64,000 nucleotides of DNA from Candidatus Aldehydirespirator sp. (GCA_965219165.1 CBDCMW010000002.1:422706-486705), one strand, 5' to 3'; shown: positions 4,223 through 43,083, counted from the first letter of the stretch. Notes: a model not told the origin generated them from the letters alone. Numbers and translations: made by a program.

Positions 4223-4241
4223 TCCGGACGGGAGCAGCGTC

Positions 4242-6764
4242 ATGAGCAACGTCACCGGCGAATCCAGCCCCGCGGGTCCCGCGCCCGACGACAATCCGGG
4301 AGTGACCGTCGTCGAGATCCAGGAGGAGATGGAGAGCTCCTTCCTCGACTACGCCATGTCGGTCATCATCAGCCGGGCGCTGCCCGATGCACGCGACGGT
4401 CTCAAACCGGTGCACCGGCGGATCCTGTGGTCGATGTATGACCAGGGCTTCCGGCCCGACCGGGGCCACGTCAAGTGCGCCCGGGTTGTGGGCGACGTCA
4501 TGGCCCGCTTCCACCCCCACGGCGACTCGGCCATCTACGACGCCTTGGCCCGGATGGCTCAGCCGTTCTCGCTGCAGCATCCCCTCATCGACTTCCACGG
4601 CAACTACGGCTCGCCCGAGGATCCACCCGCGGCGGCCCGCTACACCGAGTGCCGCCTCGACGCGTTGGCCATGTCGATGCTCGCTGACATCGGCGAGGAC
4701 ACCGTCGACTTCGTCGACAACTACTCCGGAGACTTCGACGAGCCGGCTGTCCTGCCGGCCCGCTTGCCGAATCTCCTGGTGAACGGCAGCCAGGGGATCG
4801 CGGTGGGCATGGCCACCAACATCCCGCCCCACAACCTCACAGAAGTGATTGGCGCGGTGACGCACCTGCTCGAGCATCCCGACGCCAGCACCGAGAACCT
4901 GATGGAGCACGTGCACGGCCCGGACTTCCCGACCGGCGGGCAGATCCTGGGCCGCAGCGGATTCGAGTCGGCCTACCGCACCGGCCGGGGCTCGGTGAAG
5001 ATGCGGGCCGACGTCACCCTCGCCGAGATCGGCGGCCGCAACGCACTCGTCGTCACCGCACTGCCTTACCAGGTGTCGGCCGGTGCCGTCGCTCGCAAGA
5101 TCGCCGACCTGGTCAATGCCAGGGAGCTGGAGGGCATCGCCGACGTCAACGACGAGTCCTCCGGGGACGAGACGCGCTTCGTGATCAAGCTCAAGCGGGA
5201 CGCCAACCCGGAGGTCGTGCTGAACAACCTCTGGAAGCACACCCCACTGCAGTCCAGCTTCGCCATGAACATGGTGGCGCTGGTGGACGGGGTGCCGCGC
5301 ACGCTCACGTTGCGCGATGCGCTTGTGGCCTACGTCGAGCACCAGGTCGAGGTGGTGACTCGACGCTCGGAGTTCCGGCTGGCCACAGCCCGGGCTCGAC
5401 TCCACATCGTGGAGGGACTGCTGCGTGCTCTGGGAGCCATCGACGAGATCATCGCAACGATCCGGGCCAGCGCCGACACCGGCGCGGCCCGAGCGGCCCT
5501 GGTGGCGGAGCCGTTCGCATTCTCCGAGGCACAGGCCAACCACATCCTTGAGATGGCGCTGTCGCGTCTGACCCGCCTGGGCCGCAGCCAGCTCGAGGCC
5601 GAGGCCGACGAGAAGCGCAGCCTGATCGCCGGCCTCGAAGCGCTGCTGGCCGACGAGCATCGGGTTCGAATGGCGATCCGCGACGAGCTGGGGGAGATCT
5701 CCAAGAAGTTCGGTATCGAGCGCAGGTCGGTGCTCGAGATCGATCCGGGCGAGCTCAACATCGAGGACCTGATCGACGACGACGACTTGGTGTTCACGAT
5801 GTCGGCCTCGGGCTACGTCAAGACGGTGCCCACCGACGAGTTCCGCCTCCAGGGCCGCGGCGGCCGGGGGGTGGCGGGAGCGAAGCTCAAGCAGGCCGAC
5901 AGCGTGATGCACCTGATCCACACCACGGCCCACTCGTACTTGCTGTTCTTCAGCAACCGGGGCCGGGTCTACCGGCTCAAGGCTCATGAGGTACCGGTGG
6001 CCTCGCGCACCGCTCGGGGGAGGTCCATCGTGAACTTGCTGTCGTTGCAGGACGGCGAGCGCATCCAGGCTGTGATCGACACGCGCGACTACGAGATGAA
6101 TCGCTACCTGCTGTTCGCCACGGCCAAGGGGCGGGTCAAGCGAACGAAGTTCACGGCCTACGACTCGTCGCGCAAGGCCGGTCTTATCGCCATCCACCTG
6201 CGCGACGGCGACGAGCTCGTGGCAGTGGTGCCGACCGACGGAGTGCACGACATCCTGCTGTCGTCGCGTCTCGGCCAGACGATCCGTTTCGCGCAGGCGC
6301 AGGTTCGGGAGATGGGCCGGACTGCCGCCGGGGTCATCGGCTTGAAGTTCAAGCATGCCGGCGACTCGGTGGTGTCGTGCGCGGTGGCCCGTCCGGGCGC
6401 GGCGCTGCTGTACGTCACCGCTCTGGGCTACGGCAAGCGAACGCCGGTGGACGCGTTCAACTGCAAGGGCCGCAGGGGTCAGGGAGTGATCGGGTCCAAG
6501 CTGGTCGAGGAGAAGGGTGAAATGGTCGGCACGCTCGTGGTGGACCCCGGCGACGAGATTCTTGCCGTCACCGCCAACGGAGTGGTGATTCGGATTCCAG
6601 TGAATGACGTCTCCGAGCAGGGTCGGGCCGCCGAGGGTGTCAAGGTGATGAATCCCGACCCCGGCGACGAGGTGGTGGCCATCGCCCTCGTTGGCGACGA
6701 CATGAACGGCAATGCCAACCGGGATCTCGATGAGCGACCGGAAGGGGAGCCAGAAGCGCAATGA
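4242..6764 (+). CDS. gyrA: DNA gyrase subunit A
   Basis: ATG at 4242, in frame inside track ORF 3897..6764 and 20 nt after the gyrB stop. DGLKPVHRRILW, HPHGDSAIYDALARMAQ, AARYTE catalytic Tyr region, repeated C-terminal beta-pinwheel blades. Confidence 0.97.
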   Translation: MSNVTGESSPAGPAPDDNPGVTVVEIQEEMESSFLDYAMSVIISRALPDARDGLKPVHRRILWSMYDQGFRPDRGHVKCARVVGDVMARFHPHGDSAIYDALARMAQPFSLQHPLIDFHGNYGSPEDPPAAARYTECRLDALAMSMLADIGEDTVDFVDNYSGDFDEPAVLPARLPNLLVNGSQGIAVGMATNIPPHNLTEVIGAVTHLLEHPDASTENLMEHVHGPDFPTGGQILGRSGFESAYRTGRGSVKMRADVTLAEIGGRNALVVTALPYQVSAGAVARKIADLVNARELEGIADVNDESSGDETRFVIKLKRDANPEVVLNNLWKHTPLQSSFAMNMVALVDGVPRTLTLRDALVAYVEHQVEVVTRRSEFRLATARARLHIVEGLLRALGAIDEIIATIRASADTGAARAALVAEPFAFSEAQANHILEMALSRLTRLGRSQLEAEADEKRSLIAGLEALLADEHRVRMAIRDELGEISKKFGIERRSVLEIDPGELNIEDLIDDDDLVFTMSASGYVKTVPTDEFRLQGRGGRGVAGAKLKQADSVMHLIHTTAHSYLLFFSNRGRVYRLKAHEVPVASRTARGRSIVNLLSLQDGERIQAVIDTRDYEMNRYLLFATAKGRVKRTKFTAYDSSRKAGLIAIHLRDGDELVAVVPTDGVHDILLSSRLGQTIRFAQAQVREMGRTAAGVIGLKFKHAGDSVVSCAVARPGAALLYVTALGYGKRTPVDAFNCKGRRGQGVIGSKLVEEKGEMVGTLVVDPGDEILAVTANGVVIRIPVNDVSEQGRAAEGVKVMNPDPGDEVVAIALVGDDMNGNANRDLDERPEGEPEAQ

Positions 6765-31644: not shown

Positions 31645-32793
31645 CTAGGGCCAGAGCCGGTCGGCTTGGAGGGCTTGGTGCAGGTTGTCGAGGGGCCAGA
31701 TGTCGATGCCGTCCTCGGTCCTGAAGGCCCGCCCGCCGCGGTAGGCGAGGATGCGGCGGGCCAGTCCCGGGAGCTCGGCCACGGCTCGCAGCCCTCTGAG
31801 CATGGTGGTGTTGTACCGCTCAGATGCCTTGACCTCTATGGCGAGGTGCTGGCGGTCGCGGGTGAGGACGAAGTCGACCTCGGCGGCGGACTCGGCGGCG
31901 GCCCAGTAGCCGATGTCGTCGTAGACGCGCTGATATTCGTTGTGGGCTTGCAGCAGGGCCAGTACCCAGCCCTCGAGTAGGGCGCCGCGCTCCTCGGCCG
32001 CCACCGGGCCAAGCTGGCGTTTGACAGCTCGCACTAGGCCCGGGTCGGCCCAGTACAACTTGGGGCGACGTCTCTCCCGCACCCGAAGCCTCGCCTCGAA
32101 CGCAGGCAGTTGCACGGCCAGCAGAGTGTCGTCGAGGATCTCGAGGTAGCCGTTGACGGTGGTGCGGGCGATGCCGGCATCGCGGGCAATGGAGGCGGCG
32201 TTGACGGTCTGGGCGTGCATCACCGCGGCCACCGGCAGGAAGCGCACGAAGCCCGACAGGTTGCGCACCGCGGCCTCGGCCCGGATCTCCTCGCGCAGGT
32301 ACAGCTGCGTGTAGCTCTGGAGGGCCTCGCGCCGGTCCGGTGCGGTCGATACCAGCGGGATGGTGCCATAGCGGAGCGCGTCGTCGAGGTTGAAGTCGTC
32401 GCTGAGCTCGGCCGGGGTCAGCGGGTGCATGGCCTTGCGCAGCGCCCGGCCGGCCAGCAGGTTGGTCCCTGTCGTCTTGAGCTTGCGGGCGCTGGATCCC
32501 AGCAGGGCGAAGCGCACGCCTCGCTCCTCGATCATCCGGTGCACTTCGTTGAGCAGGCTGGGGATGCGCTGAACCTCGTCGACTACCACCCAGTCGCCCG
32601 GGCCCACCCCCGACAGCAGTTGTCGGAACAGCGACGGATCGGCGAGCAGGTCGGTGAAGAGGGTTTCGTCGAGCAGGTCAAGGCGCAGGGCGTCGGGAAG
32701 GGCCTGCCGGGCCCATGTGCTCTTGCCGACGCCTCGCATGCCCAGCAGAAAGAAGCTCTGCTCCGGCATCCGGGCCAGCCGTCTGTATAGCAT
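31645..32793 (-). CDS. AAA+ ATPase with DUF4143-type C-terminal domain
   Basis: 382 aa. Walker A GMRGVGKST, Walker B WVVVDEVQ. C-terminal EVDFVL...IEVK restriction-fold-like segment typical of the AAA_14/DUF4143 family. Confidence 0.8.
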   Translation of the reverse strand: MLYRRLARMPEQSFFLLGMRGVGKSTWARQALPDALRLDLLDETLFTDLLADPSLFRQLLSGVGPGDWVVVDEVQRIPSLLNEVHRMIEERGVRFALLGSSARKLKTTGTNLLAGRALRKAMHPLTPAELSDDFNLDDALRYGTIPLVSTAPDRREALQSYTQLYLREEIRAEAAVRNLSGFVRFLPVAAVMHAQTVNAASIARDAGIARTTVNGYLEILDDTLLAVQLPAFEARLRVRERRRPKLYWADPGLVRAVKRQLGPVAAEERGALLEGWVLALLQAHNEYQRVYDDIGYWAAAESAAEVDFVLTRDRQHLAIEVKASERYNTTMLRGLRAVAELPGLARRILAYRGGRAFRTEDGIDIWPLDNLHQALQADRLWP

Positions 32794-32849: not shown

Positions 32850-35800
32850 CTATTCAGGCGGCGATAAGTTGATTCGGAGCCGTGAGGCCAACTCCAGCAA
32901 GTCCTCGTCGGAGCGGTCGGCTCCGAGGAACTCGACCAGTTCCTCCTGGCGTGGCTGGCCGAACGCGAGGCGATATGCGGCGAGCGTCTTGCGCAACTGG
33001 GGCAGGACCGCCTCATCTCGGCTGAACGGCATGACCGGCACATGCCGTTCGATCCTGGCCGGTCCCTCGTGGAACACCCAGTAAGGCACCATTTCCCCGT
33101 CATCCGTCGGCGTGTCGGTGGCGGCCATGGCGAAGAGCTCGTTCCAGGGATCGACACCGGGGGCCATTCCCTTCGCGAGCAGGTCCGGGCCAAGGGTCGC
33201 GGCGATGTTCCGTCGGACGGCGTGACCCTTGTAGCGGTGAACGCGCCCCTCGCGCTGCTCCAAGTCGACCGGGTTGGAAGGTAGGTTCCAATGGACGACG
33301 GCGTGGCACCAGAGATGGAAGTCCAGCCCCTCCTGGCCGATGGAAGTGGAGGTAAGGACGAAGGGCCAGAACGGGGAGTTGAATGCCCTGGAGACGGATT
33401 CGATCCGAACCTCGCCGCCCTCGTCGAGGGTCTGATGGCCGAAGGCGACCGCGAAGCGAGTGCGCATCCGGTAGCGGTGGAACTCGATGTCGTGGCCATT
33501 GCGCTGCCGGCTGGGAATGTCCACCCGAAACGAGGATGTGCGCAGTTCCAGGGCCTCCGCGACTGTGTAGCCGATGTCGTCGGCTGCTTCCAGGCGCCGG
33601 TCGTCGTCGACCAAGCTCAGATAGCCGAGCCAGTCACGAAGCACATGAGCATGCTCGTCGAGAACGGCTTGGAGGTTGCCGTCGATCGAGTGTCGTAGGA
33701 CATCACGCCAGTAGAGGCCTCCGCCCTCGTCGGTGTCTGGTTCCTCCGAACCCCCACCGACGACGACGGCCGTTACCTCTGGGGCGTTGAAGAAGCTCCT
33801 GAACGCGGCGCCCACCCATGCGGCGTTCACCACCACGAAGTCGTCGGAGATCGGGAGCCCGGTGACCGAACTGATCATCCGCAGCGCGCATTGCGCTGGG
33901 CCGCCGACTGCGAGTTCGGCGAGCACCTCAACGAGGTCGTCGGGACAACGGCCGAGAGCCTCCGGGCCGTACTCGACCATGGCCCTGGCCTCAGCAAGGT
34001 GGGCGCGGAGCCCGCTTCCGGCTCGTTCGCCTTCCCAGCGCTCGGCGCTGCCCGGCGCGAGCAGGAGATCGGTTGCCGACTGATGGAGTCGCTGGTCGAG
34101 GAACAGGGGCGCGGCCCAGTACCACCTTTGGTCGACGGCTCCTGCTGCGGGCGCGGCGCCAACCAACGGTTCGACGGCCTTTGCCACCTCCGCGGCCACA
34201 TCGGCCAGCACCTCAGACACCCGACGGCGGCCGTCCAGCGCTCGCGGCCGGGGATCTCCGAGTTCTGCGAGGCTGAGGCTCGGCCAAGTGAGCAGGAAAG
34301 CGGTCATCGCCGCGGCTCGACGCCCGGCCACCGCCTCTCCCGGCCGGGGTCCGCCCGATGAGCGCTCGGTGGTTCGGAAGGCGAGACGCTGGCCTCCGCG
34401 CCGTCCGTAGTCGGCCGTGTAGTTGTGGCTGCGCGCCGCAAAGGCGCGCCGCTCAGCCTCGAAGCTCACCATCGAGGAGACCACTTTCGGGACGACTGCC
34501 CATCCTGAGAAGATCAGGCGCTTCGTGAGGCTGGCAGCCTCCCGCGACTCGTAGACCGATCCGGTGTCGTAGTACCGCATCGACGGAGGTATCCACAGCA
34601 ACTCGAAGGCACGACGTTGGTCGAGATCGTGGAGCAGCCAGCGAAGCCGCCCGTTCTGGGGGTCGATGCGCTGATACGCCTCGATGTCGTCCCAGTTCAG
34701 CAGGCCGGGGCCAGGATCGAGCCCGACGTCGTCGGCGAACCGGCCGTCTGCCGCGGCTTGAACGATTCCCTCCTTCAGCTTGTACCTCTCCATGAAGTTG
34801 ACGAGGTACGGCCCGGACTTCCAGTACTCCGTTGGCTCGTGGTGCTTCACGGTCTCGGCGAGGCTGCCGAAGCGCAGGTAGGCGCGAAGATCGTCGGGTT
34901 TCACCGGCGCTTCGGTGTCCAACTCGCGGAGCATTCCGTCGCGGTCCGGCGTGGCTGCCAACCGCTCTGTTCGTGCCATCACGCCCCGCAACTCGGCCCC
35001 GATGCTGCCGCAGATCGCCTCGGCACTGCTGAGCGACTCGGCGGATGTGAGCGCCGAACGGAGGGCGCTGAAGAGGTGCTGCAGCCGGTCGACTCGCGCC
35101 GAGTCCTGAAACAGGAACGAACAGGTGGCGAGGAAGTCCTCGTAGTGGTTGACGTCGATCTCATCGGCCGTCGTGTACATGCGGTACGGGGTTGCCGACA
35201 GCAGCAGCGTCCGGGTGGCGCGACCCGTCTCGGGATCCCGGTAGTCGAACAGACGGTGGGCCAACTTGGCCGCAAAATTGTCGGGCTCCGGCTGCAGCAA
35301 GTCTTTGAACCGCTGGAACTCGTCCAGCACCACGAGATCCGGTTGGAGCGCGGCAATGCCGACCCTCGCCATGATGGAGCGGACCTCGCCGATCAGCTCC
35401 TTGCGCCGCGGCTGCAACTCGTGCGGGAACTTGCGCTTCCACGCCAGCTTGCCGGCAAGATTCTCGAACAATTCGCGAACGGTCGGCTTGCCGCGGGCCG
35501 TCCGGGACTCGTCGAGCTCTGCGAGCAGTTCCGCGAACTCGTCGAGCGAACCCGTGATCCGAGGCCGGTACTGTCGCTCCACCCACCGCAGCCGCCCGTC
35601 GGGGTCGCCGGCTCTGATGCCGTGCCAGAAGATGCGCCGCGCCGGTGCGTTCATGACACTCGCCCCCCAATGGGCGCGCAGGAACGTGTACGCCAGGCAG
35701 CGCTCGCCGAACCTGCCCGTCTGATGGCCGAACTTCAGGGACGTTCCGGGTGTGATCGCCAGCAGGTTGACACCCGTCTGTCCGTCGTCACCGTCGTCCA

Positions 35801-36140
35801 GCTCGGCGAGAGGCAGCATCGTCAGCCGCCCGACGTCCTCGAGGGGCTCTATGCCCTCGGGAGTCAACTTGCGAACGTTCTGGCGGGCGATCGCCGCGTT
35901 GGAGCAGACGTAGATGATGTCGTGCCGCGCGTCTCCCGTGCGTCGGAGGTGGTCGATGACTTGGGCGATCACGCCCTTGGCGACGTGGGTCTTGCCGAGG
36001 CCGACCTCGTCGGCAACCAGGAACCGGATGGCGGGATCCTCATCGGCGAACATCCGCTGAAAGGCCCAGCGGGCGGTCCGCCGCTGGAAGTCCTTCAGGT
36101 CGGCCAGAACCGCATTCACATCGATGTGTTGTGCAGTCAT
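32850..36140 (-). CDS. Large SF2 (SNF2/RapA-like) helicase-related protein
   Basis: 1096 aa. Motif I ADEVGLGKT, motif II VVLDEFQRF, motif III LLLSATPY, C-lobe SIGQEGLDFH and QREGRVHRYKG. ATG overlaps the upstream PLD stop (ATGA 36140-36137). Confidence 0.85.
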   Translation of the reverse strand: MTAQHIDVNAVLADLKDFQRRTARWAFQRMFADEDPAIRFLVADEVGLGKTHVAKGVIAQVIDHLRRTGDARHDIIYVCSNAAIARQNVRKLTPEGIEPLEDVGRLTMLPLAELDDGDDGQTGVNLLAITPGTSLKFGHQTGRFGERCLAYTFLRAHWGASVMNAPARRIFWHGIRAGDPDGRLRWVERQYRPRITGSLDEFAELLAELDESRTARGKPTVRELFENLAGKLAWKRKFPHELQPRRKELIGEVRSIMARVGIAALQPDLVVLDEFQRFKDLLQPEPDNFAAKLAHRLFDYRDPETGRATRTLLLSATPYRMYTTADEIDVNHYEDFLATCSFLFQDSARVDRLQHLFSALRSALTSAESLSSAEAICGSIGAELRGVMARTERLAATPDRDGMLRELDTEAPVKPDDLRAYLRFGSLAETVKHHEPTEYWKSGPYLVNFMERYKLKEGIVQAAADGRFADDVGLDPGPGLLNWDDIEAYQRIDPQNGRLRWLLHDLDQRRAFELLWIPPSMRYYDTGSVYESREAASLTKRLIFSGWAVVPKVVSSMVSFEAERRAFAARSHNYTADYGRRGGQRLAFRTTERSSGGPRPGEAVAGRRAAAMTAFLLTWPSLSLAELGDPRPRALDGRRRVSEVLADVAAEVAKAVEPLVGAAPAAGAVDQRWYWAAPLFLDQRLHQSATDLLLAPGSAERWEGERAGSGLRAHLAEARAMVEYGPEALGRCPDDLVEVLAELAVGGPAQCALRMISSVTGLPISDDFVVVNAAWVGAAFRSFFNAPEVTAVVVGGGSEEPDTDEGGGLYWRDVLRHSIDGNLQAVLDEHAHVLRDWLGYLSLVDDDRRLEAADDIGYTVAEALELRTSSFRVDIPSRQRNGHDIEFHRYRMRTRFAVAFGHQTLDEGGEVRIESVSRAFNSPFWPFVLTSTSIGQEGLDFHLWCHAVVHWNLPSNPVDLEQREGRVHRYKGHAVRRNIAATLGPDLLAKGMAPGVDPWNELFAMAATDTPTDDGEMVPYWVFHEGPARIERHVPVMPFSRDEAVLPQLRKTLAAYRLAFGQPRQEELVEFLGADRSDEDLLELASRLRINLSPPE

Positions 36141-37945
36141 TGAGCTTCGGCTCCGGTCTCGGCCACCTGAAGGATCATCGTCCAGAGTTCGGCGAATCCT
36201 TCAGGCAGTGCATCGTCGGCGGCCAGGTCCGAGACGAGGGGATGGAGTCCGACGAGCTTCGCAGGGTCCCGTCGCATCGTCCTCAGCAGCTTCTCCAGCA
36301 CTGGGAGGCTCAGCGGGTTGGGTCCCCCTTCAGGAGTCTCGTTGCCGAGGCGGTCGACCGCGGTCATCAGGCTGATCTCGCCTGTGTCCTCGTCAAGCAG
36401 AGCCATGAGGTAGCGGAAGAATCGCTCGGCGTTCCCGATGAGCATTCGCAGCAGCAGTCGGTCACGCTGCTCGGGCACGCCGATCAGCGGGACAGGGACG
36501 ACGAAGCTGCTCAACGCACCATCCTCGGCCGCCAGCTCGAAGGCGAGGAAGCCGCTGAGGTTCTCGAGACTGGTCTCGAAGCGCTCCCCGAGGGGCTTGC
36601 CCTTGGCAACTTGGTGCCGATTCCCGGCCGATGTGAGCGGCCAGCAACAGATCTCCACGTGACTGGGTGCGGGAATCGGTTCGGTCGTCCGGTAGGTGAC
36701 GGACCATCCGGCACCGCTCTCCTCGACGCGCCCGTCGATCCGAAGTCGAGCGATGGCCTGGCGCCAGCGATCGAGCGACGAATCCCCGTTCGGCCCGTTG
36801 TCCGTGGACCGGCGGTAGTCGTAGTAGAGGTCGCGCAGACCCGGCTCATCATCGGTGCCGTCGCAGAGCCGGTCGATGCCCAGTGCGGCGGTGGATCCGA
36901 CCAGTTCCACCAGGATCTCGACGTTGTTGGCGAACGCAGGGCCGGTCGCGTTGGCGGACCCGAGGAACAGCCTCGCTCGGCCGCTCACCTCGAAGGCGAA
37001 GATCTTGGCGTGCAACCCGACAAGGGGTCGACCCGGATCGAAGGGTGACCGACGCTCGTCTTCAACGTCGAGGTCCGGAGCGCTCCCGTCGTCGAAGGCA
37101 TGCACCTTGGCCACCTCGGACAACGACTCCGCTTCGAGGCGATCAAGCTGTTCCGGTCGGCTGACCAACTCGTCGATCTGGGTCGGGTGCACCCTTGTGA
37201 AGAAGTCGTTGCTCACGAACGGCGAAATGATCAACGATCGCTCGGCGTCGGACGGCAGTGGCGAAGGCGTGCCGGTCAGGCCCAGAACATGAACCCGCAG
37301 ATCGTCGGCACCCGGCGGCAGAGCGAACCTGGCTCCTTGCAGTGCTGCCGACAGCGAGCGTACGCGTTCTTGATGGTCGGTCGAGACACGACCTTCCGAG
37401 CTTTGGAGCAGACCGTCGAATAGTGCGCCCACAGGTGCCAATAGCACCCCGGACGAACCTGCTGTTTCATCGAGGCGGACCATGGTGTCCCAGCTCTCAT
37501 CGAAGGTGAGGTTGCGGCTGGAGACAAGCACCCGGAGGCGCCTCTCGCGTGGGTGGTCGTCTGGCGGATCGCCCCCCGCCTCGTACCGGAGGACCCACAC
37601 CTTGGGATGGACGATTCCACCGCGCCGGGCTGCAACAGGGACAATTGTCCGCTCGAGAAAAGCGAACACCCGGCGCGACGATGGCAGGGCGATCTCGCCG
37701 ACCTGGCTGAACACGGTCAGCTTGCCGGCATGGGACCGCAGCGCATGGATCAGCTCGATGGGCTCGAGGGCGCCGCCGTCAGTACCATCGGCGTTACCGT
37801 GCCCTGCGAAGGCCAGAGCCGCAGGCGCAGCCAGGAGCGCCCGAAGGTCGAGGGTGTAGGTCACCGCCATGGCCGATTCGAGGCTGAAGCCGGCCGGTGG
37901 CCGCATCGCATCGATGAGAGTGGATCGGTTCGCAGGTTGCAGCAT
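36137..37945 (-). CDS. Phospholipase D-family (two HKD motifs) nuclease-like protein with uncharacterised C-terminal half
   Basis: ATG at 37945-37943, the in-frame Met20 of track ORF 36137..38002. HKD-like motifs HPKVWVL...VSSRNLT and HAKIFAFE...GSANATGPAF. Its start shares one base with the stop of the upstream ORF. Confidence 0.8.
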   Translation of the reverse strand: MLQPANRSTLIDAMRPPAGFSLESAMAVTYTLDLRALLAAPAALAFAGHGNADGTDGGALEPIELIHALRSHAGKLTVFSQVGEIALPSSRRVFAFLERTIVPVAARRGGIVHPKVWVLRYEAGGDPPDDHPRERRLRVLVSSRNLTFDESWDTMVRLDETAGSSGVLLAPVGALFDGLLQSSEGRVSTDHQERVRSLSAALQGARFALPPGADDLRVHVLGLTGTPSPLPSDAERSLIISPFVSNDFFTRVHPTQIDELVSRPEQLDRLEAESLSEVAKVHAFDDGSAPDLDVEDERRSPFDPGRPLVGLHAKIFAFEVSGRARLFLGSANATGPAFANNVEILVELVGSTAALGIDRLCDGTDDEPGLRDLYYDYRRSTDNGPNGDSSLDRWRQAIARLRIDGRVEESGAGWSVTYRTTEPIPAPSHVEICCWPLTSAGNRHQVAKGKPLGERFETSLENLSGFLAFELAAEDGALSSFVVPVPLIGVPEQRDRLLLRMLIGNAERFFRYLMALLDEDTGEISLMTAVDRLGNETPEGGPNPLSLPVLEKLLRTMRRDPAKLVGLHPLVSDLAADDALPEGFAELWTMILQVAETGAEAQ

Positions 37946-39207
37946 CAGGTTCCGGCCTCCGCCATTGCAAGATCTTGGAGGTAGGTCTTGGTGATGGACC
38001 ACCGGTAGTCGAGTTGGCCGCCGATGGGCGCCTGGGTCCAGTCCTCCAGGGCGGCTCGGTGGGACAGCCGGGCCCGCTTCGACTTGAGTCGCCGCTCCCG
38101 CTCGCGGATGAGCCGGTGGACGTCTTTGTTCTCGGCGAACCCGGTTGGGTCGTTGACGGCGCGTCGGGCCATCTGATCCCAGAAGTGCAGGGTGCTGCGG
38201 GCGATGCGGTGGTCGGCCAGGAGTTGCCAGAACTCCGGAGCGTTGCTCACCCAGGAGAGCAACTTGTCATTGCGGTTGTCGACCAACTGACTCCAGTCCT
38301 TGAGTTGGCGTAGCTGGTCCTCTTCAAGATTCTCCGTGTCCCAGCCGAGTTCGTTGCTCGCTGCCCGGGCTGCCAGCACGTTGTAGACGAGCCGTGGTCC
38401 GAGGGTCAGTTCCGAGAAGCAGCGGGCATGGTGCAGAACCTCGACGAGACGGGCGCGGAATTCGTGTACGTCCACAAGCCACGGGTAGTCGACGTCGAAC
38501 ATCACGCCGGGCTTTGCCGACAGGACGGCTATCAACGTGTCCGGATGCCGCCGCCGGATGCCGTCTGCCAAGATCTGTGCCTCGTCGGGCTGGAGCCGGA
38601 AGTCGATCTCGTCGCTCGGGTCGATCTTGCCGCTCGGGTCGATCTTGCCGCTAGGGAAGTCTTTCGGAGCTGGCGGGAGATTTGCCCACATCGACACCCC
38701 TGCCTTCGTGGCGTTGCCGTCGTCGTCGCGTTCGGGCCGGAGCCGCCCGTTGGTGGCTGCCCGCTGCGCGTACTCAGCGAGGCTGAGGTTGAGGCGCCTG
38801 ATGCCCCAAGCCTCCATGCTTCCCCAGTAGATGTCGCTCGGCATTCGCCTCAGGCTTCGGTGGGCGACGCGGCCGATCACCCCTTGGCCCGGCCCGAGGG
38901 GTGATAGACGATCGATTAGCTTCGCCTCAGCGTCACGAAGCCTGCGGGCGAAATCGGCCGCAGAGAGATGCTGATCTTCGAGACTCTTGAAGATCCAGGG
39001 CAGGAAGATGAAGTAGCGCAACCTCGTCTGGACGGTCGAGGTGCCTGGGCTGAGCATGTCTGAGAAGGCGTCCCGTATTGAGCCCAGACCGAGCACGTCG
39101 AGGGTGCTGGGCTCATCGAGCGAGCGCAGGAGGGTGCTCACGCGCTCACTTGCGGCTGCATCGAAGTCAAGCCAGCCCGCTGACGAAGCTGGCGCGTAAG
39201 TGTTCAT
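37945..39207 (-). CDS. Uncharacterised 420-aa protein, first gene of the PLD-helicase operon
   Basis: Long ORF with coding-like GC3. No motif I can assign. Contains a 3 x 18-bp in-frame repeat (PSGKIDPSGKIDPSDEID). Confidence 0.6.
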   Translation of the reverse strand: MNTYAPASSAGWLDFDAAASERVSTLLRSLDEPSTLDVLGLGSIRDAFSDMLSPGTSTVQTRLRYFIFLPWIFKSLEDQHLSAADFARRLRDAEAKLIDRLSPLGPGQGVIGRVAHRSLRRMPSDIYWGSMEAWGIRRLNLSLAEYAQRAATNGRLRPERDDDGNATKAGVSMWANLPPAPKDFPSGKIDPSGKIDPSDEIDFRLQPDEAQILADGIRRRHPDTLIAVLSAKPGVMFDVDYPWLVDVHEFRARLVEVLHHARCFSELTLGPRLVYNVLAARAASNELGWDTENLEEDQLRQLKDWSQLVDNRNDKLLSWVSNAPEFWQLLADHRIARSTLHFWDQMARRAVNDPTGFAENKDVHRLIRERERRLKSKRARLSHRAALEDWTQAPIGGQLDYRWSITKTYLQDLAMAEAGT

Positions 39208-39398
39208 CAGTTCCAGTCAAGCACCGATGTACGACAGGCGACCGCCATGCGGCACGTTGAACGTCTTGACGGAGGGACTGAGGGGAAGAGGTTGAGCAGA
39301 GATGAACCCGGCCTATGGCGATCAGGCGACCTTGAGAGCGCTCGCTTGCCCACACCGGCACCAGGAGACAGTGATATTTAGATATTATTCAGCCCTAT

Positions 39399-40622
39399 TT
39401 GTCATACCCCCTGCATATGGTTGCCGGCATGGAATTGATAGTCGATTCGGGTCGGGTGACGTGCGCTCGGGGCGGGGCTTGCGTCGGGGATGCCGCGCTG
39501 GGCTCGTTGAGCGACGCGGAGCTCACCGAGCGGCTGGTGCAGCTGGGTCGGCAGCGGTCCCGGACCGACGCCATGCTGGCTGAGACCGCCGCGGAGATGC
39601 ACCGGCGTGTGGGCGGGCGGGGGGCGGCGGCGATGATGCGCGAAGGGCTGCATGTCTCGGCGCGCCAGGCCACCGCCGATGTGGAGCTGGCCGCGTCGCT
39701 GGATGAGTTCCCCGCGACGCTGGATGCTTTGCGTGCCGGGGAGATCACTGTGGGCCATGCCCGGGTGATCGCCAGGGTGGGCGCCGACCCCGAACACGCC
39801 GACGAGCCCGCCTTGTTGGAGATGGCCCGGGGCTATCCGGTGGACATGTTCGCCCGTATGACCCGCCAGTACATGAGCACCCAGGACTCCAGCGCCGAGC
39901 ACAGCCGCCAGCGCCAGAACCGGTGGGCGTCGCTGGTGCAGGATCCCGACGGGTCATGGCGGCTGTCGGCGTACTACGACCACTGCACAGGCAAGCGCAT
40001 CAGCATGGCATTCGAGCAGATGGTGCGCACCTACCGCGACGGCGAGGGCCCCCACGAGCGGGTGACCTACCAGCAGCGCCGCGCCGACGCTTTGGCCAAC
40101 TTGATCACCGGCGAGGGAGCTTTCGGTCGCCCCAAGACAACGATGTTGGTGATTGCCGACTACGACGCCGCCTCACGCGAGCTGCGTGACCTGCGCTATG
40201 ACGACGGCCTGCCGGTGCCCGCCGATCAGATCGCCCGCATCGCCGCAGAGGCGAAGATCCTGCCCGCTGTGTTCAGCGCCGAGGGCGACCCGCTGTGGCT
40301 GGGAAGAACCCAACGCGACGCCAGCGCTGGCCAGCGCATGGTGCTGGCGGCCCGTGACGGCGGCTGCGTCAACTGCGGCTCCCCAGTCGAAGGAACCGAA
40401 CCCCACCACATCGAATGGTTCTCCCGCGGCGGCCCCACCGACATTGACAACCTCGCCCTGCTGTGTGAACGCTGCCACCACCTGATTCACGACGACAACT
40501 GGCAACTCCACCGCAACAACGGCCGACACAGACTCCAACCACCGGCACATCCCCGGCCCCAGCCCGGACCCGCTCCCGGCCCGGCTGCCCGTGCAGAGCA
40601 GAACCTCGTCCTGCGAAACTGA
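39399..40622 (+). CDS. DUF222/HNH endonuclease-domain protein (actinobacterial 13E12-type family)
   Basis: 407 aa. N-terminal DUF222-like region (LSDAELTERLVQLGR..., GEITVGHARVIA). C-terminal HNH: CVNCGSP...HHIEWFSRGGPTDIDNLALLCERCHHLIH. Confidence 0.85.
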   Translation: MSYPLHMVAGMELIVDSGRVTCARGGACVGDAALGSLSDAELTERLVQLGRQRSRTDAMLAETAAEMHRRVGGRGAAAMMREGLHVSARQATADVELAASLDEFPATLDALRAGEITVGHARVIARVGADPEHADEPALLEMARGYPVDMFARMTRQYMSTQDSSAEHSRQRQNRWASLVQDPDGSWRLSAYYDHCTGKRISMAFEQMVRTYRDGEGPHERVTYQQRRADALANLITGEGAFGRPKTTMLVIADYDAASRELRDLRYDDGLPVPADQIARIAAEAKILPAVFSAEGDPLWLGRTQRDASAGQRMVLAARDGGCVNCGSPVEGTEPHHIEWFSRGGPTDIDNLALLCERCHHLIHDDNWQLHRNNGRHRLQPPAHPRPQPGPAPGPAARAEQNLVLRN

Positions 40623-40728
40623 CGGTGACCTTGCGCGCTCTGGGAGTGGTCCGACGGGTTCCACGCTCTGCCGCCTTGGCCGCGCCAGCCCTGACAGCGA
40701 CGGCGATGGACCCTATGATGCCGGTGCA

Positions 40729-43083
40729 GTGTCAACCTTCGGGACCGTGGCGACTGGCCCTCGAACCCAGGCGCAGCGGTCGAGGCGCCGCGGTCGGGAG
40801 TTGCGTCGCCCCGTGATCGCCCTGATGGCGACGGCGCTGCTGGTGGCCGCTTGCTCGAGCGAATCGGGCCCCGGGGCCGTTGAAGATCAGGCCGACGCGA
40901 ATGGGGGCGAGCACGAGGAGGCTCCGATCACCGTGGCGCCCGACCGCGAGGCTGAAGGCGAAGCGACCACGGGGGCGACCCTCGACGATTCCAAGGTCGA
41001 GGCTCCGAGCGCTGCTGAGGAGGTGGGGGATCCTGGCGGCGCGGAAGCGCCCACCTCCACCATCGACGTACTGGACGACGCGGGACGCGCTGAAGAGCCG
41101 CCCACCTCCACGACCTCCCCGGCGGAGCAACCCGAGGTGGACGAGGACCAGCCGATCCCGGCTGCGGAACAACCCGAACAGCCGGTCGAGCCCGAACAGC
41201 CGGACCAGTCTGGAGAAGTAGTAGAGCCCCAAGAGCCGAGCGAGTCAGAAGAGCCCGAGCAGATCGAGGGGCCCGAGCAGATCGAGGGGCCCGAGCAGCC
41301 CGAGCCGGAGCCTGTCGAGCCGACCCCGATAGCCGAGGTCATCGTCTCGGGCTCGCCCGCGCCCGAATGGCCGTTCCGCGGGCTAGTGGAGACTGACTTC
41401 ATTTGGGACTCCGACGTCTACGTCATTCGATACCTCAGTTCCAGGGATCGGACCATCACCGAGACCACGGTTACAGGATTGATCCATAACGGCTATTGGT
41501 ATGGTCAGATAGGCAGCGTGAGCGAGGCGGGCGTCACCGTCTCAGCGACACGCGGCTCCGAACGTGTTCAAATCGTGTTGCCCTGGGGTGAGACCGCCAC
41601 GGTTGTGCCGCGAGGTCAGTACCCCGACGGGGATGCCTCATGGCAGGACATCCGGCTGTCCGTCACGAGCTTGACGCACGGATACGTCATTGGCGGCACG
41701 CCGTTCGACGTCAGTGTTCACGGCAACGGCGTGCGTGTTCAAGCTGGCGAAGCAGCCGCCAATTACGAGTACTACTCCGGTGATGGCGACCCACCGGAGA
41801 ACCCCGAGCTGTACGGCGGCGCCCTTGACTCCTGGACCGACGTGTACTTCATGGGCACTGACGGCGAGTTTGTGGCATTCGCGACCAAGCCCTACGAGCC
41901 GGCCGGTGCTCTGCCGACCGCGTACCTGCTGTCGATGCGCACCGGTGAGGTGTTGGCGTGCGGACTCTCGGGCTATGACCTCGTTCTGGTTCAGCCGCCG
42001 CACGAGGGACTCCTAGTGGAGCAAATCACACTGCCGAACAACCGCCAGCTTCACTCTGATGAGCAGTGCGGTGAGCGGTCGGCGAGCCTGGCCGAGCTCT
42101 GGGGGTCGCTGCCGCCGTCAGGGGCGCCATACCCCCCGAGACAGCCGGGACCCGAGCCGGCGCCCCTGCCGCTCGCGACCGCGCCACCGTGGCCGTTCCG
42201 GGGTGCCGTGCTGGCGTTGCAGCGATACGCCCCGACCAGCTTCAGTTACGAGACGGTGCTGCAGTACTATTCCTCCGAGGACGGCTCGGTCACCGAGCTC
42301 GTGTTCGGACCGATGCGCACCCTCAGCAGGGACCTTGCCATCGACGCCAACGAGCACGCGGTGGAAGTGTCACGGTACGGCTGGGCGGTCAGGGTCCCCT
42401 GGGGTGAGGTGGCCCAACTCTTGGAGGTGGATCTCAACCGACCCAGAACCGCCCGCGCCACTGCCTTCCCGACGCTCCTACAGTTCGGCCCGAGCCACGC
42501 CGAACTTGAGATCGAATCGGTCTATGCCCACGCGCTAGTCACCCGGTTCTCGGCGCCAAGGGAGCAGTCCTGGTACGTCTGGTCTGCGCCCGATGAGAGC
42601 CGGATCGACACAGAGCTGGAGATCAGCAGCAGACCGCCTGTCTTCCCGTTCTGGCTGCGTGGGACCGACGGGCGTATCGCGGCGATCAGCCAGCGAGGTT
42701 CCGGCGAGGACTGCGCATACATGTGCAGTCCAGTGCTCACGGTGCTGATCTCGCTCGAGACGGGGCAGGTGCTGAGCTGCGGCTGGGAGTCCGACGGCGT
42801 CCATGCGCTGGTCTTCGTAGCGCCGACCGGTTCGAACATGACAAGCAATTTGACCCTTCCGCCGTCCGGTTGGCTCGACCCTAGCCAGTGCTACACCCAT
42901 AGGACTGACGCATTCGGTAACTGCTCGTGGTTGGCTTACAGCAAGGACGAGCCGAGATGCAGCCGTCACTTCGAGTTGGCCCCGCTGTCCGACGGCATCG
43001 CCGAGGTGTCGTTGGTTCCGGCCCGCATACAGGTTGACCTGGACCGGCGGAGGCTGCTGATCCAGCCCGCGCTCAGCGGGTGA
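40729..43083 (+). CDS. Large secreted lipoprotein with acidic Glu/Pro-rich linker and two homologous ~250-aa modules (unknown function)
   Basis: Candidate GTG at 40729. Basic n-region RSRRRGRELRRP plus VIALMATALLVAAC lipobox. Modules begin APEWPFRG / APPWPFRG and contain TGEVLACG / TGQVLSCG. Confidence 0.6.
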   Translation: MSTFGTVATGPRTQAQRSRRRGRELRRPVIALMATALLVAACSSESGPGAVEDQADANGGEHEEAPITVAPDREAEGEATTGATLDDSKVEAPSAAEEVGDPGGAEAPTSTIDVLDDAGRAEEPPTSTTSPAEQPEVDEDQPIPAAEQPEQPVEPEQPDQSGEVVEPQEPSESEEPEQIEGPEQIEGPEQPEPEPVEPTPIAEVIVSGSPAPEWPFRGLVETDFIWDSDVYVIRYLSSRDRTITETTVTGLIHNGYWYGQIGSVSEAGVTVSATRGSERVQIVLPWGETATVVPRGQYPDGDASWQDIRLSVTSLTHGYVIGGTPFDVSVHGNGVRVQAGEAAANYEYYSGDGDPPENPELYGGALDSWTDVYFMGTDGEFVAFATKPYEPAGALPTAYLLSMRTGEVLACGLSGYDLVLVQPPHEGLLVEQITLPNNRQLHSDEQCGERSASLAELWGSLPPSGAPYPPRQPGPEPAPLPLATAPPWPFRGAVLALQRYAPTSFSYETVLQYYSSEDGSVTELVFGPMRTLSRDLAIDANEHAVEVSRYGWAVRVPWGEVAQLLEVDLNRPRTARATAFPTLLQFGPSHAELEIESVYAHALVTRFSAPREQSWYVWSAPDESRIDTELEISSRPPVFPFWLRGTDGRIAAISQRGSGEDCAYMCSPVLTVLISLETGQVLSCGWESDGVHALVFVAPTGSNMTSNLTLPPSGWLDPSQCYTHRTDAFGNCSWLAYSKDEPRCSRHFELAPLSDGIAEVSLVPARIQVDLDRRRLLIQPALSG

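What the first reader, a model, noticed from the sequence alone, without database searches (positions are those of the whole stretch)
32850..39207. Start/stop-overlapped three-gene operon: unknown 420-aa protein + two-HKD PLD nuclease + 1096-aa SF2 helicase (candidate defence system)
Three long minus-strand ORFs are chained by overlaps I read directly. The ORF1 stop and the PLD ATG share one base (TGATG, 37947-37943). The PLD stop overlaps the helicase ATG (ATGA, 36140-36137).

The PLD protein has two HKD-type motifs (HPKVWVL..SSRNLT and HAKIFAFE..GSANAT) plus a ~250-aa C-terminal half I cannot assign. The helicase has GLGKT, DEFQ, SAT and QREGRVHRYKG motifs, with a long insertion between the two RecA lobes. 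ORF1 has no motif I recognise.

There is no methyltransferase, specificity subunit or DUF1998 partner, so it is not a classical R-M or complete DISARM locus. Nuclease + helicase + unknown partner, in an accessory patch between housekeeping genes, is the typical signature of an anti-phage or anti-plasmid system. From memory, the domain content resembles what has been reported for Azaca (ZacABC) and the DrmC/DrmD modules of DISARM. I cannot verify homology here. If it matches neither, it is an undescribed family.
Basis: partly seen in the sequence, partly recalled or inferred. Interest (0 to 1): 0.85.

Follow-up and report, generated by a model that had tools for sequence, protein, structure and literature searches.

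The report
Azaca (ZacABC) anti-phage defence operon
The three overlapping genes are an intact copy of Azaca, an already named bacterial anti-phage system (unknown-function protein ZacA, DNA-cutting ZacB, motor protein ZacC), so the find is real but ordinary; the only mildly new point is that close relatives swap the ZacA+ZacB pair and ZacC independently at the same chromosomal site.

Summary

The interpretation "candidate defence system, possibly Azaca" is also correct. All three proteins match the PADLOC Azaca models end to end: ZacA 1.6e-102, ZacB 6e-141, ZacC E=0. ORF1 is Pfam DUF6361, the signature ZacA domain. DISARM and Dpd models match only a short helicase or PLD motif, far below their cut-offs.

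The gene order ZacA-ZacB-ZacC holds wherever the contig allows in 79 fetched genome loci from at least six phyla, and on plasmids. Catalytic residues are invariant across the family, and dN/dS is 0.2-0.4.

A 2025 preprint shows that Bacillus Azaca is a ZacABC complex. It cleaves phage T4 DNA and needs all three proteins, the PLD site and the ZacC Walker A motif.

So this is a routine instance of a known system in an Acidimicrobiia genome, in a low-GC patch between pgi and hemL. Extras:
- zacAB and zacC alleles reassort among near-conspecific genomes, with a breakpoint at the zacB/zacC junction.
- The ZacA model has no PDB neighbour.
- A PDC-S01-like ATPase lies directly downstream of zacC.

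Novelty and interest are low.

The parts
37945..39207 (-). zacA: 420-aa DUF6361 protein, first gene of the operon. It has a mostly helical fold with no PDB neighbour. The N-terminal ~36 residues are conserved but modelled with low confidence.
   Evidence: PADLOC ZacA 1.6e-102, covering 8-416 of 420. Pfam PF19888 1.3e-46. 575 homologues. AF2 model pLDDT 79.7, pTM 0.79. Foldseek against the PDB: best E=1.1. No PDB match by sequence.
38602..38656 (-). 18-bp x3.1 in-frame tandem repeat inside zacA, encoding PSGKID-PSGKID-PSDEID (aa 185-202). It adds 12 residues relative to the usual ~408-aa homologues and lies in a low-confidence loop.
   Evidence: TRF score 89; coordinates; homologue lengths; pLDDT 55-64 in this stretch.
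36137..37945 (-). zacB: 602-aa phospholipase-D-family nuclease. The two HxK motifs lie in one chain (H113/K115 and H312/K314, plus GSANAT). The C-terminal ~220 aa remain unassigned. Its start shares one base with the zacA stop.
   Evidence: PADLOC ZacB 6e-141, 1-596 against 1-582 of 586. Residues invariant across 78 sequences. AF2 model matches PLD, Tdp1, PLD3, PPK1 and R.NgoAVII folds at E 1e-7 to 1e-4. P0121 is a 100% identical 602-aa protein.
32850..36140 (-). zacC: 1096-aa SF2 helicase/translocase. Motifs: Walker A GLGKT 47-51, DEFQ 273-276, SAT 315-317, motif VI QREGR 962-966, with about 600 aa inserted between the two RecA lobes. Its ATG overlaps the zacB stop (ATGA).
   Evidence: PADLOC ZacC E=0, 1018.7 bits, 6-1094 against 4-1016 of 1019. 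Pfam Helicase_C 918-970. 205 positions at least 97% conserved in 71 sequences.
39208..39398 (.). Divergent intergenic region between zacA and the DUF222-HNH gene. It presumably holds the operon promoter (inferred). It lies inside the recombined zacAB tract.
   Evidence: Gene positions. There is no nucleotide similarity to L007 here. The sigma-70 consensus scan found nothing, which is uninformative for this high-GC genome.
31645..32793 (-). Neighbour, not core Azaca: a 382-aa AAA_14 + DUF4143 ATPase, a PADLOC candidate single-gene system (PDC-S01). It is on the same strand, 56 bp downstream of zacC. It fills a variable slot and is present in only some syntenic genomes.
   Evidence: Pfam. PADLOC PDC-S01 6.5e-53. 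Full-length in 8 of the syntenic loci, a fragment in L007, replaced by a NYN gene in L081, and absent in L080.
39399..40622 (+). Neighbour: a DUF222 + HNH endonuclease gene, divergent from zacA. It is conserved next to Azaca only in the syntenic Acidimicrobiales loci. Its first ~250 nt lie inside the exchanged tract.
   Evidence: Pfam; tblastn; identity profile.

Best explanation
This is an intact chromosomal copy of the known Azaca anti-phage system, the translationally coupled operon zacA-zacB-zacC.

By homology with the biochemically studied Bacillus massilioanorexius system, the three proteins most likely assemble into one ZacABC complex:
- ZacC, an SF2 ATPase/translocase, uses ATP to engage or track along invading DNA and licenses the nuclease.
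- ZacB, a single-chain two-HxK phospholipase-D-type nuclease, cuts the DNA through a covalent phospho-histidine intermediate.
- ZacA (DUF6361) is an obligatory non-catalytic subunit. It probably acts as a scaffold or regulator, docking through its conserved but intrinsically unstructured N-terminus.

No methyltransferase is present. Self-DNA must therefore be spared by a property of the target, for example hypermodified bases as in T4, or another feature of incoming DNA, rather than by host methylation.

What is shown here: identity of the three genes, operon structure, conservation of catalytic residues, synteny, purifying selection, and horizontal mobility.

What is taken from the literature: complex formation, the requirement for all three proteins, for the PLD site and for the Walker A motif, and the preference for T4 DNA.

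What is inferred: the division of labour above, and that the zacAB pair is the module that diversifies, because it recombines as a unit separately from zacC.
For: Family assignment:
- Full-length PADLOC matches: ZacA 1.6e-102, ZacB 6e-141, ZacC E=0.
- ORF1 is Pfam DUF6361.

Operon structure and synteny:
- 1-base and 4-base start/stop overlaps.
- ZacA-ZacB adjacent, co-oriented and in order in 79/79 loci, followed by ZacC in 77. ZacC is missing only at contig ends (L056, L061). A few loci (L003, L008, L028, L030, L055, L071) show partial or disrupted zacB or zacC.
- The loci span Actinomycetota, Chloroflexota, Acidobacteriota, Pseudomonadota, Bacillota and Desulfobacterota.
- The same trio sits on plasmid pESA3, annotated DUF6361 / phospholipase D family / helicase-related, again with overlapping junctions.

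Functional integrity:
- Catalytic residues are at least 97% conserved across near (53-95%) and distant (29-45%) relatives: ZacB H113, K115, H312, K314, G329, S330, N332; ZacC GLGKT, DEFQ, SAT, QREGR.
- The ZacB model has a PLD/Tdp1/PLD3/NgoAVII-like two-lobe fold.
- dN/dS is 0.2-0.4.

Accessory nature:
- Low-GC patch between pgi and hemL.
- Plasmid-borne relatives, 20 of 52 on conjugative plasmids.
- Cross-phylum similarity: ZacC is 78-81% identical to copies in Gammaproteobacteria and Bryobacterales, higher than to many syntenic Acidimicrobiales.

Literature:
- bioRxiv 10.1101/2025.07.10.664194: Azaca gives >1e6-fold protection against T4. Only the full BmZacABC cleaves T4 DNA. Mutating the nuclease site or the ZacC Walker A abolishes cleavage. 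ZacA is required as a protein, but mutating its conserved residues has no effect.
- PMC10482375: Azaca is among the systems enriched in Actinobacteria.
Against: - Nothing here tests function in this organism.
- The characterised Bacillus system was not compared directly. It is assumed, not shown, to lie in the distant clade (ZacA 33-37%, ZacB 29-34%, ZacC 35-45% identity to the window). Target preference for glucosyl-hmC DNA may therefore not transfer.
- The roles assigned to ZacA and to the ZacB C-terminal ~220 aa are inference. The ZacA fold has no structural neighbour, and the ZacB C-terminus is modelled poorly.
- The preprint could not determine stoichiometry for Azaca.
- The locus occupies the same chromosomal site in at least 22 related genomes. 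That is also what a lineage-specific housekeeping function would look like. Because loci were fetched by the presence of ZacA, I cannot say how often the site is empty.
Confidence: 0.92

Rival explanations
1. It is an Azaca homologue, but this Acidimicrobiia clade has a different target or trigger from the Bacillus system. It might restrict unmodified or differently modified phage DNA, or plasmids, rather than glucosyl-hmC DNA.
For: The clades are divergent: 29-45% identity to the distant clade. The zacAB alleles are strongly diversified and reassort among near-conspecific genomes, which suggests specificity is not fixed. T-even-like hypermodified phages are not known for these hosts (own knowledge).
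Against: All catalytic and most structural positions are conserved across clades. No extra domain distinguishes the clade: the PADLOC models are covered end to end.
Confidence: 0.3
2. It is a lineage-specific housekeeping DNA repair or recombination module, not a defence system.
For: It occupies the same chromosomal site (pgi ... hemL) in at least 22 related genomes. It is under purifying selection. It lies in a core region about 30 kb from gyrBA.
Against: GC is lower than the flanks. Divergent alleles are exchanged between near-conspecific genomes: dS is 0.74-0.83 inside the tract against 0.03-0.15 in the flanks. Closely related copies occur in other phyla and on plasmids next to an integrase. 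The family has an experimentally shown anti-phage phenotype. A candidate defence gene (PDC-S01) sits next door.
Confidence: 0.04
3. It is a remnant or partial DISARM (DrmC + DrmD) or Dpd (DpdE-type) restriction module that has lost its partners.
For: The PLD + SNF2-like helicase pairing resembles these modules. There are weak motif-level hits to DrmC, DrmD and DpdE.
Against: The hits cover only ~45-70 residues and lie far below curated cut-offs: DrmC 17.6 against 133, DrmD 49.6 against 610, DpdE 54.4 against 500. The ZacB and ZacC models match end to end. No DrmA, DrmB, methyltransferase or dpd gene lies in the annotated flanks. The trio is a self-contained unit in 79 loci.
Confidence: 0.02
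4. It is an undescribed defence family.
For: Pfam and NCBIfam alone give almost nothing for ZacB and ZacC. No solved structure exists for any subunit.
Against: The PADLOC Azaca models match all three proteins with E-values from 1e-102 to 0. DUF6361 is the ZacA domain according to the preprint.
Confidence: 0.01

Closest known systems
Azaca (ZacA/ZacB/ZacC). From my own knowledge it was first described by Millman et al. 2022; PMC10952713 cites that paper for Azaca's PLD-like domain. Biochemistry is in bioRxiv 10.1101/2025.07.10.664194.
   Same: Same three proteins in the same order, with overlapping junctions: a DUF6361 protein, a two-HxK PLD nuclease and a ~1000-1100-aa SF2 helicase. The PADLOC models match end to end. 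The catalytic residues needed in BmAzaca (PLD site, ZacC Walker A) are present.
   Different: It comes from a different clade, Acidimicrobiia, with only 29-45% identity to the distant clade of Bacillota and Proteobacteria. ZacC is about 77 aa longer than the PADLOC model, and ZacA carries a 12-aa tandem-repeat insertion. Host and phages are unknown. No functional data exist for this clade.
DISARM DrmC (PLD) and DrmD (SNF2 helicase)
   Same: A PLD-family nuclease is paired with a large SF2/SNF2-like helicase in a defence context.
   Different: Similarity is confined to the HKD motif and helicase motifs V-VI. There is no DrmA, DrmB (DUF1998) or methyltransferase. ZacA has no DISARM counterpart.
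ATP-dependent PLD-type restriction enzymes such as NgoAVII (R protein with a PLD domain plus an N ATPase protein)
   Same: A PLD-fold nuclease whose DNA cleavage depends on a partner NTPase. The ZacB model matches R.NgoAVII (4rct, E 1.8e-4).
   Different: ZacB carries both HxK lobes in one chain, like Tdp1 and PLD3, rather than forming a homodimer. There is no cognate methyltransferase. It needs a third subunit, ZacA. There is no B3-like DNA-binding domain.
Hachiman (HamAB) and other nuclease-NTPase defence complexes
   Same: A nuclease effector held in a complex with an SF2 helicase, with cleavage requiring the complex.
   Different: The nuclease fold differs (PLD against Cap4/DUF1837). Azaca cleavage needs the helicase Walker A motif whereas Hachiman cleavage in the same assays did not. 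Azaca has three subunits, not two.

Membership tests
Azaca | ZacA: DUF6361 protein (Pfam PF19888; PADLOC PDLC03828) | tested here: met
   PF19888 1.3e-46, 159.8 bits against a cut-off of 25. PADLOC ZacA 1.6e-102, 8-416 against 3-393 of 396.
Azaca | ZacB: PLD-family nuclease with HxK active-site motifs (PADLOC PDLC03829) | tested here: met
   PADLOC ZacB 6e-141, full length. H113/K115 and H312/K314 are invariant in 78 sequences. PLD fold by Foldseek. The Pfam PLDc_2 match alone is below its cut-off (17.9 against 27).
Azaca | ZacC: large SF2 helicase with Walker A and B motifs (PADLOC PDLC03830) | tested here: met
   PADLOC ZacC E=0, 1018.7 bits, 6-1094 against 4-1016 of 1019. GLGKT, DEFQ, SAT and QREGR are conserved.
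Azaca | All three genes contiguous, co-oriented, in the order A-B-C | tested here: met
   Window. ZacA-ZacB in 79/79 related loci, with ZacC following in 77; the two exceptions are contig ends, and a few loci have partial or disrupted zacB or zacC. pESA3.
Azaca | Direct sequence relationship to the experimentally validated Bacillus massilioanorexius ZacABC | not tested
The relationship rests on the PADLOC models built for the family.
Azaca | Anti-phage phenotype; ZacABC-dependent DNA cleavage | not testable with these tools
   Known only for BmAzaca.
DISARM | DrmA + DrmB (DUF1998) + methyltransferase in the locus | tested here: not met
   The flanking genes are sox, cytochrome c, pgi, AAA_14-DUF4143, DUF222-HNH, a lipoprotein-like ORF, yceI, hemL and hemB.
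DISARM | Full-length match to the DrmC and DrmD equivalog models | tested here: not met
   NCBIfam DrmC 17.6 bits (cut-off 133). DrmD 49.6 and 30.6 bits (cut-offs 610 and 950). Only ~45-60 residues are matched.
Dpd (7-deazaguanine DNA modification/restriction) | DpdE equivalog match | tested here: not met
   NF041062 54.4 bits against a cut-off of 500, C-terminal motif only. No dpd-like genes lie in the flanks.
Classical type I/III restriction-modification | Cognate methyltransferase (and specificity subunit) | tested here: not met
   None in the annotated flanks, 25.3-46.4 kb.

The most novel reading that the evidence does not exclude
In this sponge- and marine-associated Acidimicrobiales lineage, Azaca is a long-resident locus at a fixed site (pgi ... 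hemL). Its two halves behave as exchangeable cassettes: zacA+zacB always travel together, while zacC is swapped independently, with a sharp breakpoint at the 4-base zacB/zacC overlap. If this reflects selection, it would mark ZacAB as the specificity or anti-defence-evasion module and ZacC as a generic motor, comparable to hsdS shuffling in type I R-M. It would also make ZacA, an orphan fold that is required although its conserved residues are dispensable, the likely sensor. That would provide a testable handle on how Azaca tells self from non-self.
Probability: 0.3. Interest if true: 0.45.

Novelty: already known. Interest (0 to 1): 0.15.

Why it matters
As a discovery it matters little. Standard defence finders (PADLOC, and presumably DefenseFinder) would label this locus Azaca automatically, and Azaca is already reported as enriched in Actinobacteria.

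Its residual value is as comparative material for a system whose mechanism is only partly known:
- Natural zacAB/zacC chimeras among near-identical genomes suggest which subunits co-evolve. They offer ready-made allele swaps for testing specificity.
- The list of family-wide invariant residues and the orphan ZacA fold could guide mutagenesis and structure work.

Tried and rejected
- Pfam and NCBIfam alone were nearly blind to ZacB and ZacC, giving only sub-threshold PLDc_2, Helicase_C and DrmC/DrmD/DpdE motif hits. These were rejected as family assignments because coverage was 45-70 residues and scores lay far below the cut-offs.
- Sequence search of the PDB found nothing for any subunit.
- Foldseek of the ZacA model against the PDB gave only noise: best E=1.1, TM below 0.2. 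No fold assignment was made.
- The ZacB C-terminal ~220 aa were modelled with low confidence and could not be assigned.
- The sigma-70 promoter and intrinsic terminator scan gave no more than shuffled expectation, which is uninformative for a high-GC actinobacterium.
- The idea that the downstream AAA_14-DUF4143 gene is a fourth Azaca gene was rejected. It is full-length in only 8 of the syntenic loci and in none of the non-syntenic loci.
- The idea that the 830-aa ORF is a defence gene found no support: there is no Pfam, PADLOC or NCBIfam hit, and it has a lipoprotein-like signal. No mobile-element ends were found around it.
- The phage collection gave only one weak ZacA-like hit.
- I ran no further search on retrieving the Bacillus massilioanorexius proteins, because the PADLOC models already settle membership.
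- I did not run the representative-library search or the metagenome scan.
Full report
OBSERVATION. The window carries three long minus-strand ORFs at 37945-39207 (420 aa), 36137-37945 (602 aa from the ATG; the longest ORF runs from a GTG at 38002) and 32850-36140 (1096 aa). The junctions are as described. The ORF1 TGA and the ORF2 ATG share one base ('cctgatgctg'), and the ORF2 TGA overlaps the ORF3 ATG as ATGA ('caatgact').

The ATG start of ORF2 is confirmed in three ways: the ZacB model aligns from residue 1, tblastn to homologues starts at q1, and public assemblies call an identical 602-aa protein (P0121).

All quoted motifs exist:
- ZacB: HPKVWVL 113-119, SSRNLT 142-147, HAKIFAFE 312-319, GSANAT 329-334.
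- ZacC: GLGKT 47-51, DEFQ 273-276, SAT 315-317, QREGRVHRYKG 962-972, with about 600 residues between motif III and the Helicase_C match at 918-970.

WHAT IT IS. Against PADLOC-DB the three proteins match the Azaca models end to end:
- ZacA: 1.6e-102, residues 8-416 against model positions 3-393 of 396.
- ZacB: 6e-141, 1-596 against 1-582 of 586.
- ZacC: E=0, 1018.7 bits, 6-1094 against 4-1016 of 1019.

ORF1 is Pfam DUF6361 (1.3e-46), which the literature names as the ZacA domain. The next-best PADLOC and NCBIfam hits (DrmC, DrmD, DpdE, BrxH, RapA) cover only the HKD motif or helicase motifs V-VI. They lie far below curated cut-offs: DrmC 17.6 against 133 bits, DrmD 49.6 against 610, DpdE 54.4 against 500. 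The locus is therefore an Azaca system.

CONTEXT. The rest of the window is housekeeping: gyrB and gyrA at 2-7 kb, then metabolic genes. The operon lies in a patch of about 11.5 kb with lower GC, 0.645-0.66 against 0.69-0.75. The patch sits between sarcosine oxidase / cytochrome c / pgi on one side and yceI / hemL / hemB on the other. It also holds:
- An AAA_14-DUF4143 ATPase, 56 bp downstream of zacC on the same strand (PADLOC candidate PDC-S01, 6.5e-53).
- A divergent DUF222-HNH endonuclease gene.
- An 830-aa ORF with no family match.

No methyltransferase, specificity subunit or DUF1998 gene is present.

The window's own locus is in a public metagenome assembly (L082, ENA ERZ25067264), with the same gene calls. 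The closest genomes are MAGs named Candidatus Aldehydirespirator and other Acidimicrobiales, many from sponge-derived bins.

CONSERVATION AND SYNTENY. A scan of one genome per GTDB species found 261 stretches encoding ZacA relatives, and 79 loci were kept. tblastn of the window's proteins shows ZacB directly downstream of ZacA, in the same order and on the same strand, in 79 of 79. ZacC follows in 77 of them. The two loci without ZacC (L056, L061) end at a contig edge, and a few others (L003, L008, L028, L030, L055, L071) show partial or disrupted zacB or zacC.

Hosts include Acidimicrobiia, Dehalococcoidia, Bryobacterales, Gammaproteobacteria, Bacillota, Geobacter, Desulfobacterales, Anaerolineae and Myxococcaceae. 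ZacC relatives also sit on 52 plasmids, 20 of them conjugative, including a haloarchaeal plasmid. On Cronobacter pESA3 the trio is annotated 'DUF6361 family protein / phospholipase D family protein / helicase-related protein', again with overlapping junctions, next to an integrase.

Residues conserved in at least 97% of sequences, across both the near clade (53-95% identity) and the distant clade (29-45%), include:
- ZacB: H113, K115, R144, N145, D149, H312, K314, G329, S330, N332, E343.
- ZacC: G47-T51, D273-Q276, S315-T317, Q962-R966.

Pairwise dN/dS is 0.2-0.4 for all three genes; the one exception is zacA against L081 (0.94), at very low divergence (dS 0.06). The genes are intact and under purifying selection.

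STRUCTURE.
- No subunit has a sequence-detectable solved structure.
- An AF2 model of ZacA (pLDDT 79.7, pTM 0.79) is almost entirely helical. Its N-terminal 36 residues are low-confidence yet contain family-invariant residues (S8, W12, D14). Foldseek against the PDB finds nothing (best E=1.1).
- The ZacB model is moderate (pLDDT 65.5). Its first ~380 residues match two-lobe PLD-superfamily enzymes: a bacterial PLD (7e0m, 1.7e-7), the PPK1 C-terminal domains, Tdp1, PLD3 and the PLD-type restriction enzyme R.NgoAVII.
- ZacB therefore carries a complete pseudo-dimeric PLD active site in one chain. Its C-terminal ~220 residues, a beta-rich part followed by helices, stay unassigned.

HOW IT MOST LIKELY WORKS. 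The only mechanistic data are for Bacillus massilioanorexius Azaca (bioRxiv 10.1101/2025.07.10.664194):
- More than 10^6-fold protection against T4.
- A preference for T4 (glucosyl-hmC) dsDNA in vitro.
- Cleavage only when ZacA, ZacB and ZacC are all present.
- Loss of cleavage on mutation of the nuclease site or the ZacC Walker A motif.
- No effect of mutating conserved ZacA residues.

Transferring this by homology, I propose a ZacABC complex. ATP-driven ZacC engages foreign DNA and licenses ZacB, which cuts through a phospho-histidine intermediate (established PLD chemistry). ZacA is an obligatory scaffold or regulatory subunit.

There is no methyltransferase, so discrimination must rest on a property of the invader's DNA. 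Whether that property is base hypermodification in this clade is unknown. These steps are inferred, not shown here.

A MODESTLY NEW POINT. At least 22 related Acidimicrobiales genomes carry Azaca at the same site, with pgi on one side and DUF222-HNH, yceI and hemL on the other. Yet the Zac proteins are much more diverged (ZacA 57-74%, ZacB 63-73%) than HemL (82-94%).

Three near-conspecific genomes, whose housekeeping flanks (sox/pgi, hemL/hemB) are mostly 94-99% identical at nucleotide level, make the pattern clear:
- L080 shares all three alleles (94/90/95% aa).
- L081 shares zacAB (86/89%) but has a different zacC (73%).
- L007 shares zacC (96%) but has different zacAB (62/68%).

Against L007, identity drops from 93-99% to 63-81% exactly at the zacB/zacC ATGA junction (~36.1 kb). 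It recovers at ~39.65 kb, inside the 5' end of the HNH gene. Synonymous divergence inside the tract (dS 0.74-0.83) is 5-15 times that of the flanks (0.03-0.15). These are imported old alleles, not local fast evolution.

Across 54 near-clade loci, ZacA and ZacB identities are never discordant, while ZacC is discordant with ZacAB in six pairs. This suggests, but does not prove, that ZacAB is a co-adapted and diversifying unit and ZacC a more interchangeable motor. The sample is small, and loci were selected by the presence of ZacA.

COMPARISON AND NOVELTY. Every testable defining feature of Azaca is met. Those of DISARM, Dpd and classical R-M are not (see the membership table). Azaca has already been reported as enriched in Actinobacteria (PMC10482375). 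The finding is therefore a routine instance of a known system, and its interest is low. The allele-reassortment pattern and the orphan ZacA fold are the only points a specialist might want to follow up.

VERDICT.
- Observation: confirmed.
- Interpretation (defence system, Azaca): supported.
- Novelty: already known.
- Interest: 0.15.

Noticed in passing
window 36100-39650; loci L007, L080, L081: zacAB and zacC alleles reassort among near-conspecific genomes. L007 has the same zacC (96% aa) but different zacAB (62/68%). L081 has the same zacAB (86/89%) but a different zacC (73%). One breakpoint lies exactly at the ATGA zacB/zacC overlap, the other inside the 5' end of the DUF222-HNH gene. dS inside the tract is 5-15 times that of the flanks.
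   Followed up: yes
window 31645-32793 (-): A 382-aa AAA_14 + DUF4143 ATPase matches the PADLOC candidate single-gene system PDC-S01 (6.5e-53). It lies 56 bp downstream of zacC on the same strand. The slot between zacC and pgi is variable: this gene in some genomes, a NYN-domain gene in L081, a 3' fragment in L007, nothing in L080.
   Followed up: partly
window 40591-43083 (+): An 830-aa ORF (called as 752 aa in L082) is absent from all 79 genome loci and from L080 and L081. It is present only in L082, the window's own locus, inserted between the HNH gene and yceI. It has no Pfam, PADLOC or NCBIfam hit. It shows a lipoprotein-like signal (…LLVAAC…), a long acidic and Pro-rich linker with 18-bp repeats (41253-41298), and two copies of a ~274-aa domain. 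No mobile-element ends were found.
   Followed up: partly
window 39399-40622 (+): A DUF222 + HNH endonuclease gene, of the type I recall as the actinobacterial REP13E12 family (own knowledge), lies divergent from zacA. It is conserved beside Azaca only in the syntenic Acidimicrobiales loci. It might mark or promote the recombination hotspot.
   Followed up: partly
window 38602-38656 (-), inside zacA: An in-frame 18-bp x3.1 tandem repeat (PSGKID units) makes this ZacA 420 aa instead of the usual ~408. It lies in a low-confidence surface loop.
   Followed up: yes
loci L013, L014, L019, L023, L025, L027: Azaca copies 55-62% (ZacA) and 73-78% (ZacC) identical to the window occur in Dehalococcoidia, Bryobacterales, Pseudomonadales and Gammaproteobacteria MAGs whose isolate and accession names look like the same sequencing project as the Acidimicrobiia MAGs. 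Window ZacC is closer to some of these than to many syntenic Acidimicrobiales. This points to cross-phylum transfer, possibly within a shared habitat (the shared-habitat part is inferred from the record names, not checked).
   Followed up: partly
phage record MT835621.1, 13078-13950 (hit H16): An unannotated 'Bacteriophage sp.' contig from human faeces encodes a weak ZacA-like stretch: 25.6% identity over 66% of ZacA, E 6e-18.
   Followed up: no
window 2153-6764 (+): gyrB and gyrA lie about 30 kb from the Azaca locus. The island therefore sits in a core chromosomal region; if gyrBA is origin-proximal, as it often is (own knowledge), so is the island.
   Followed up: no
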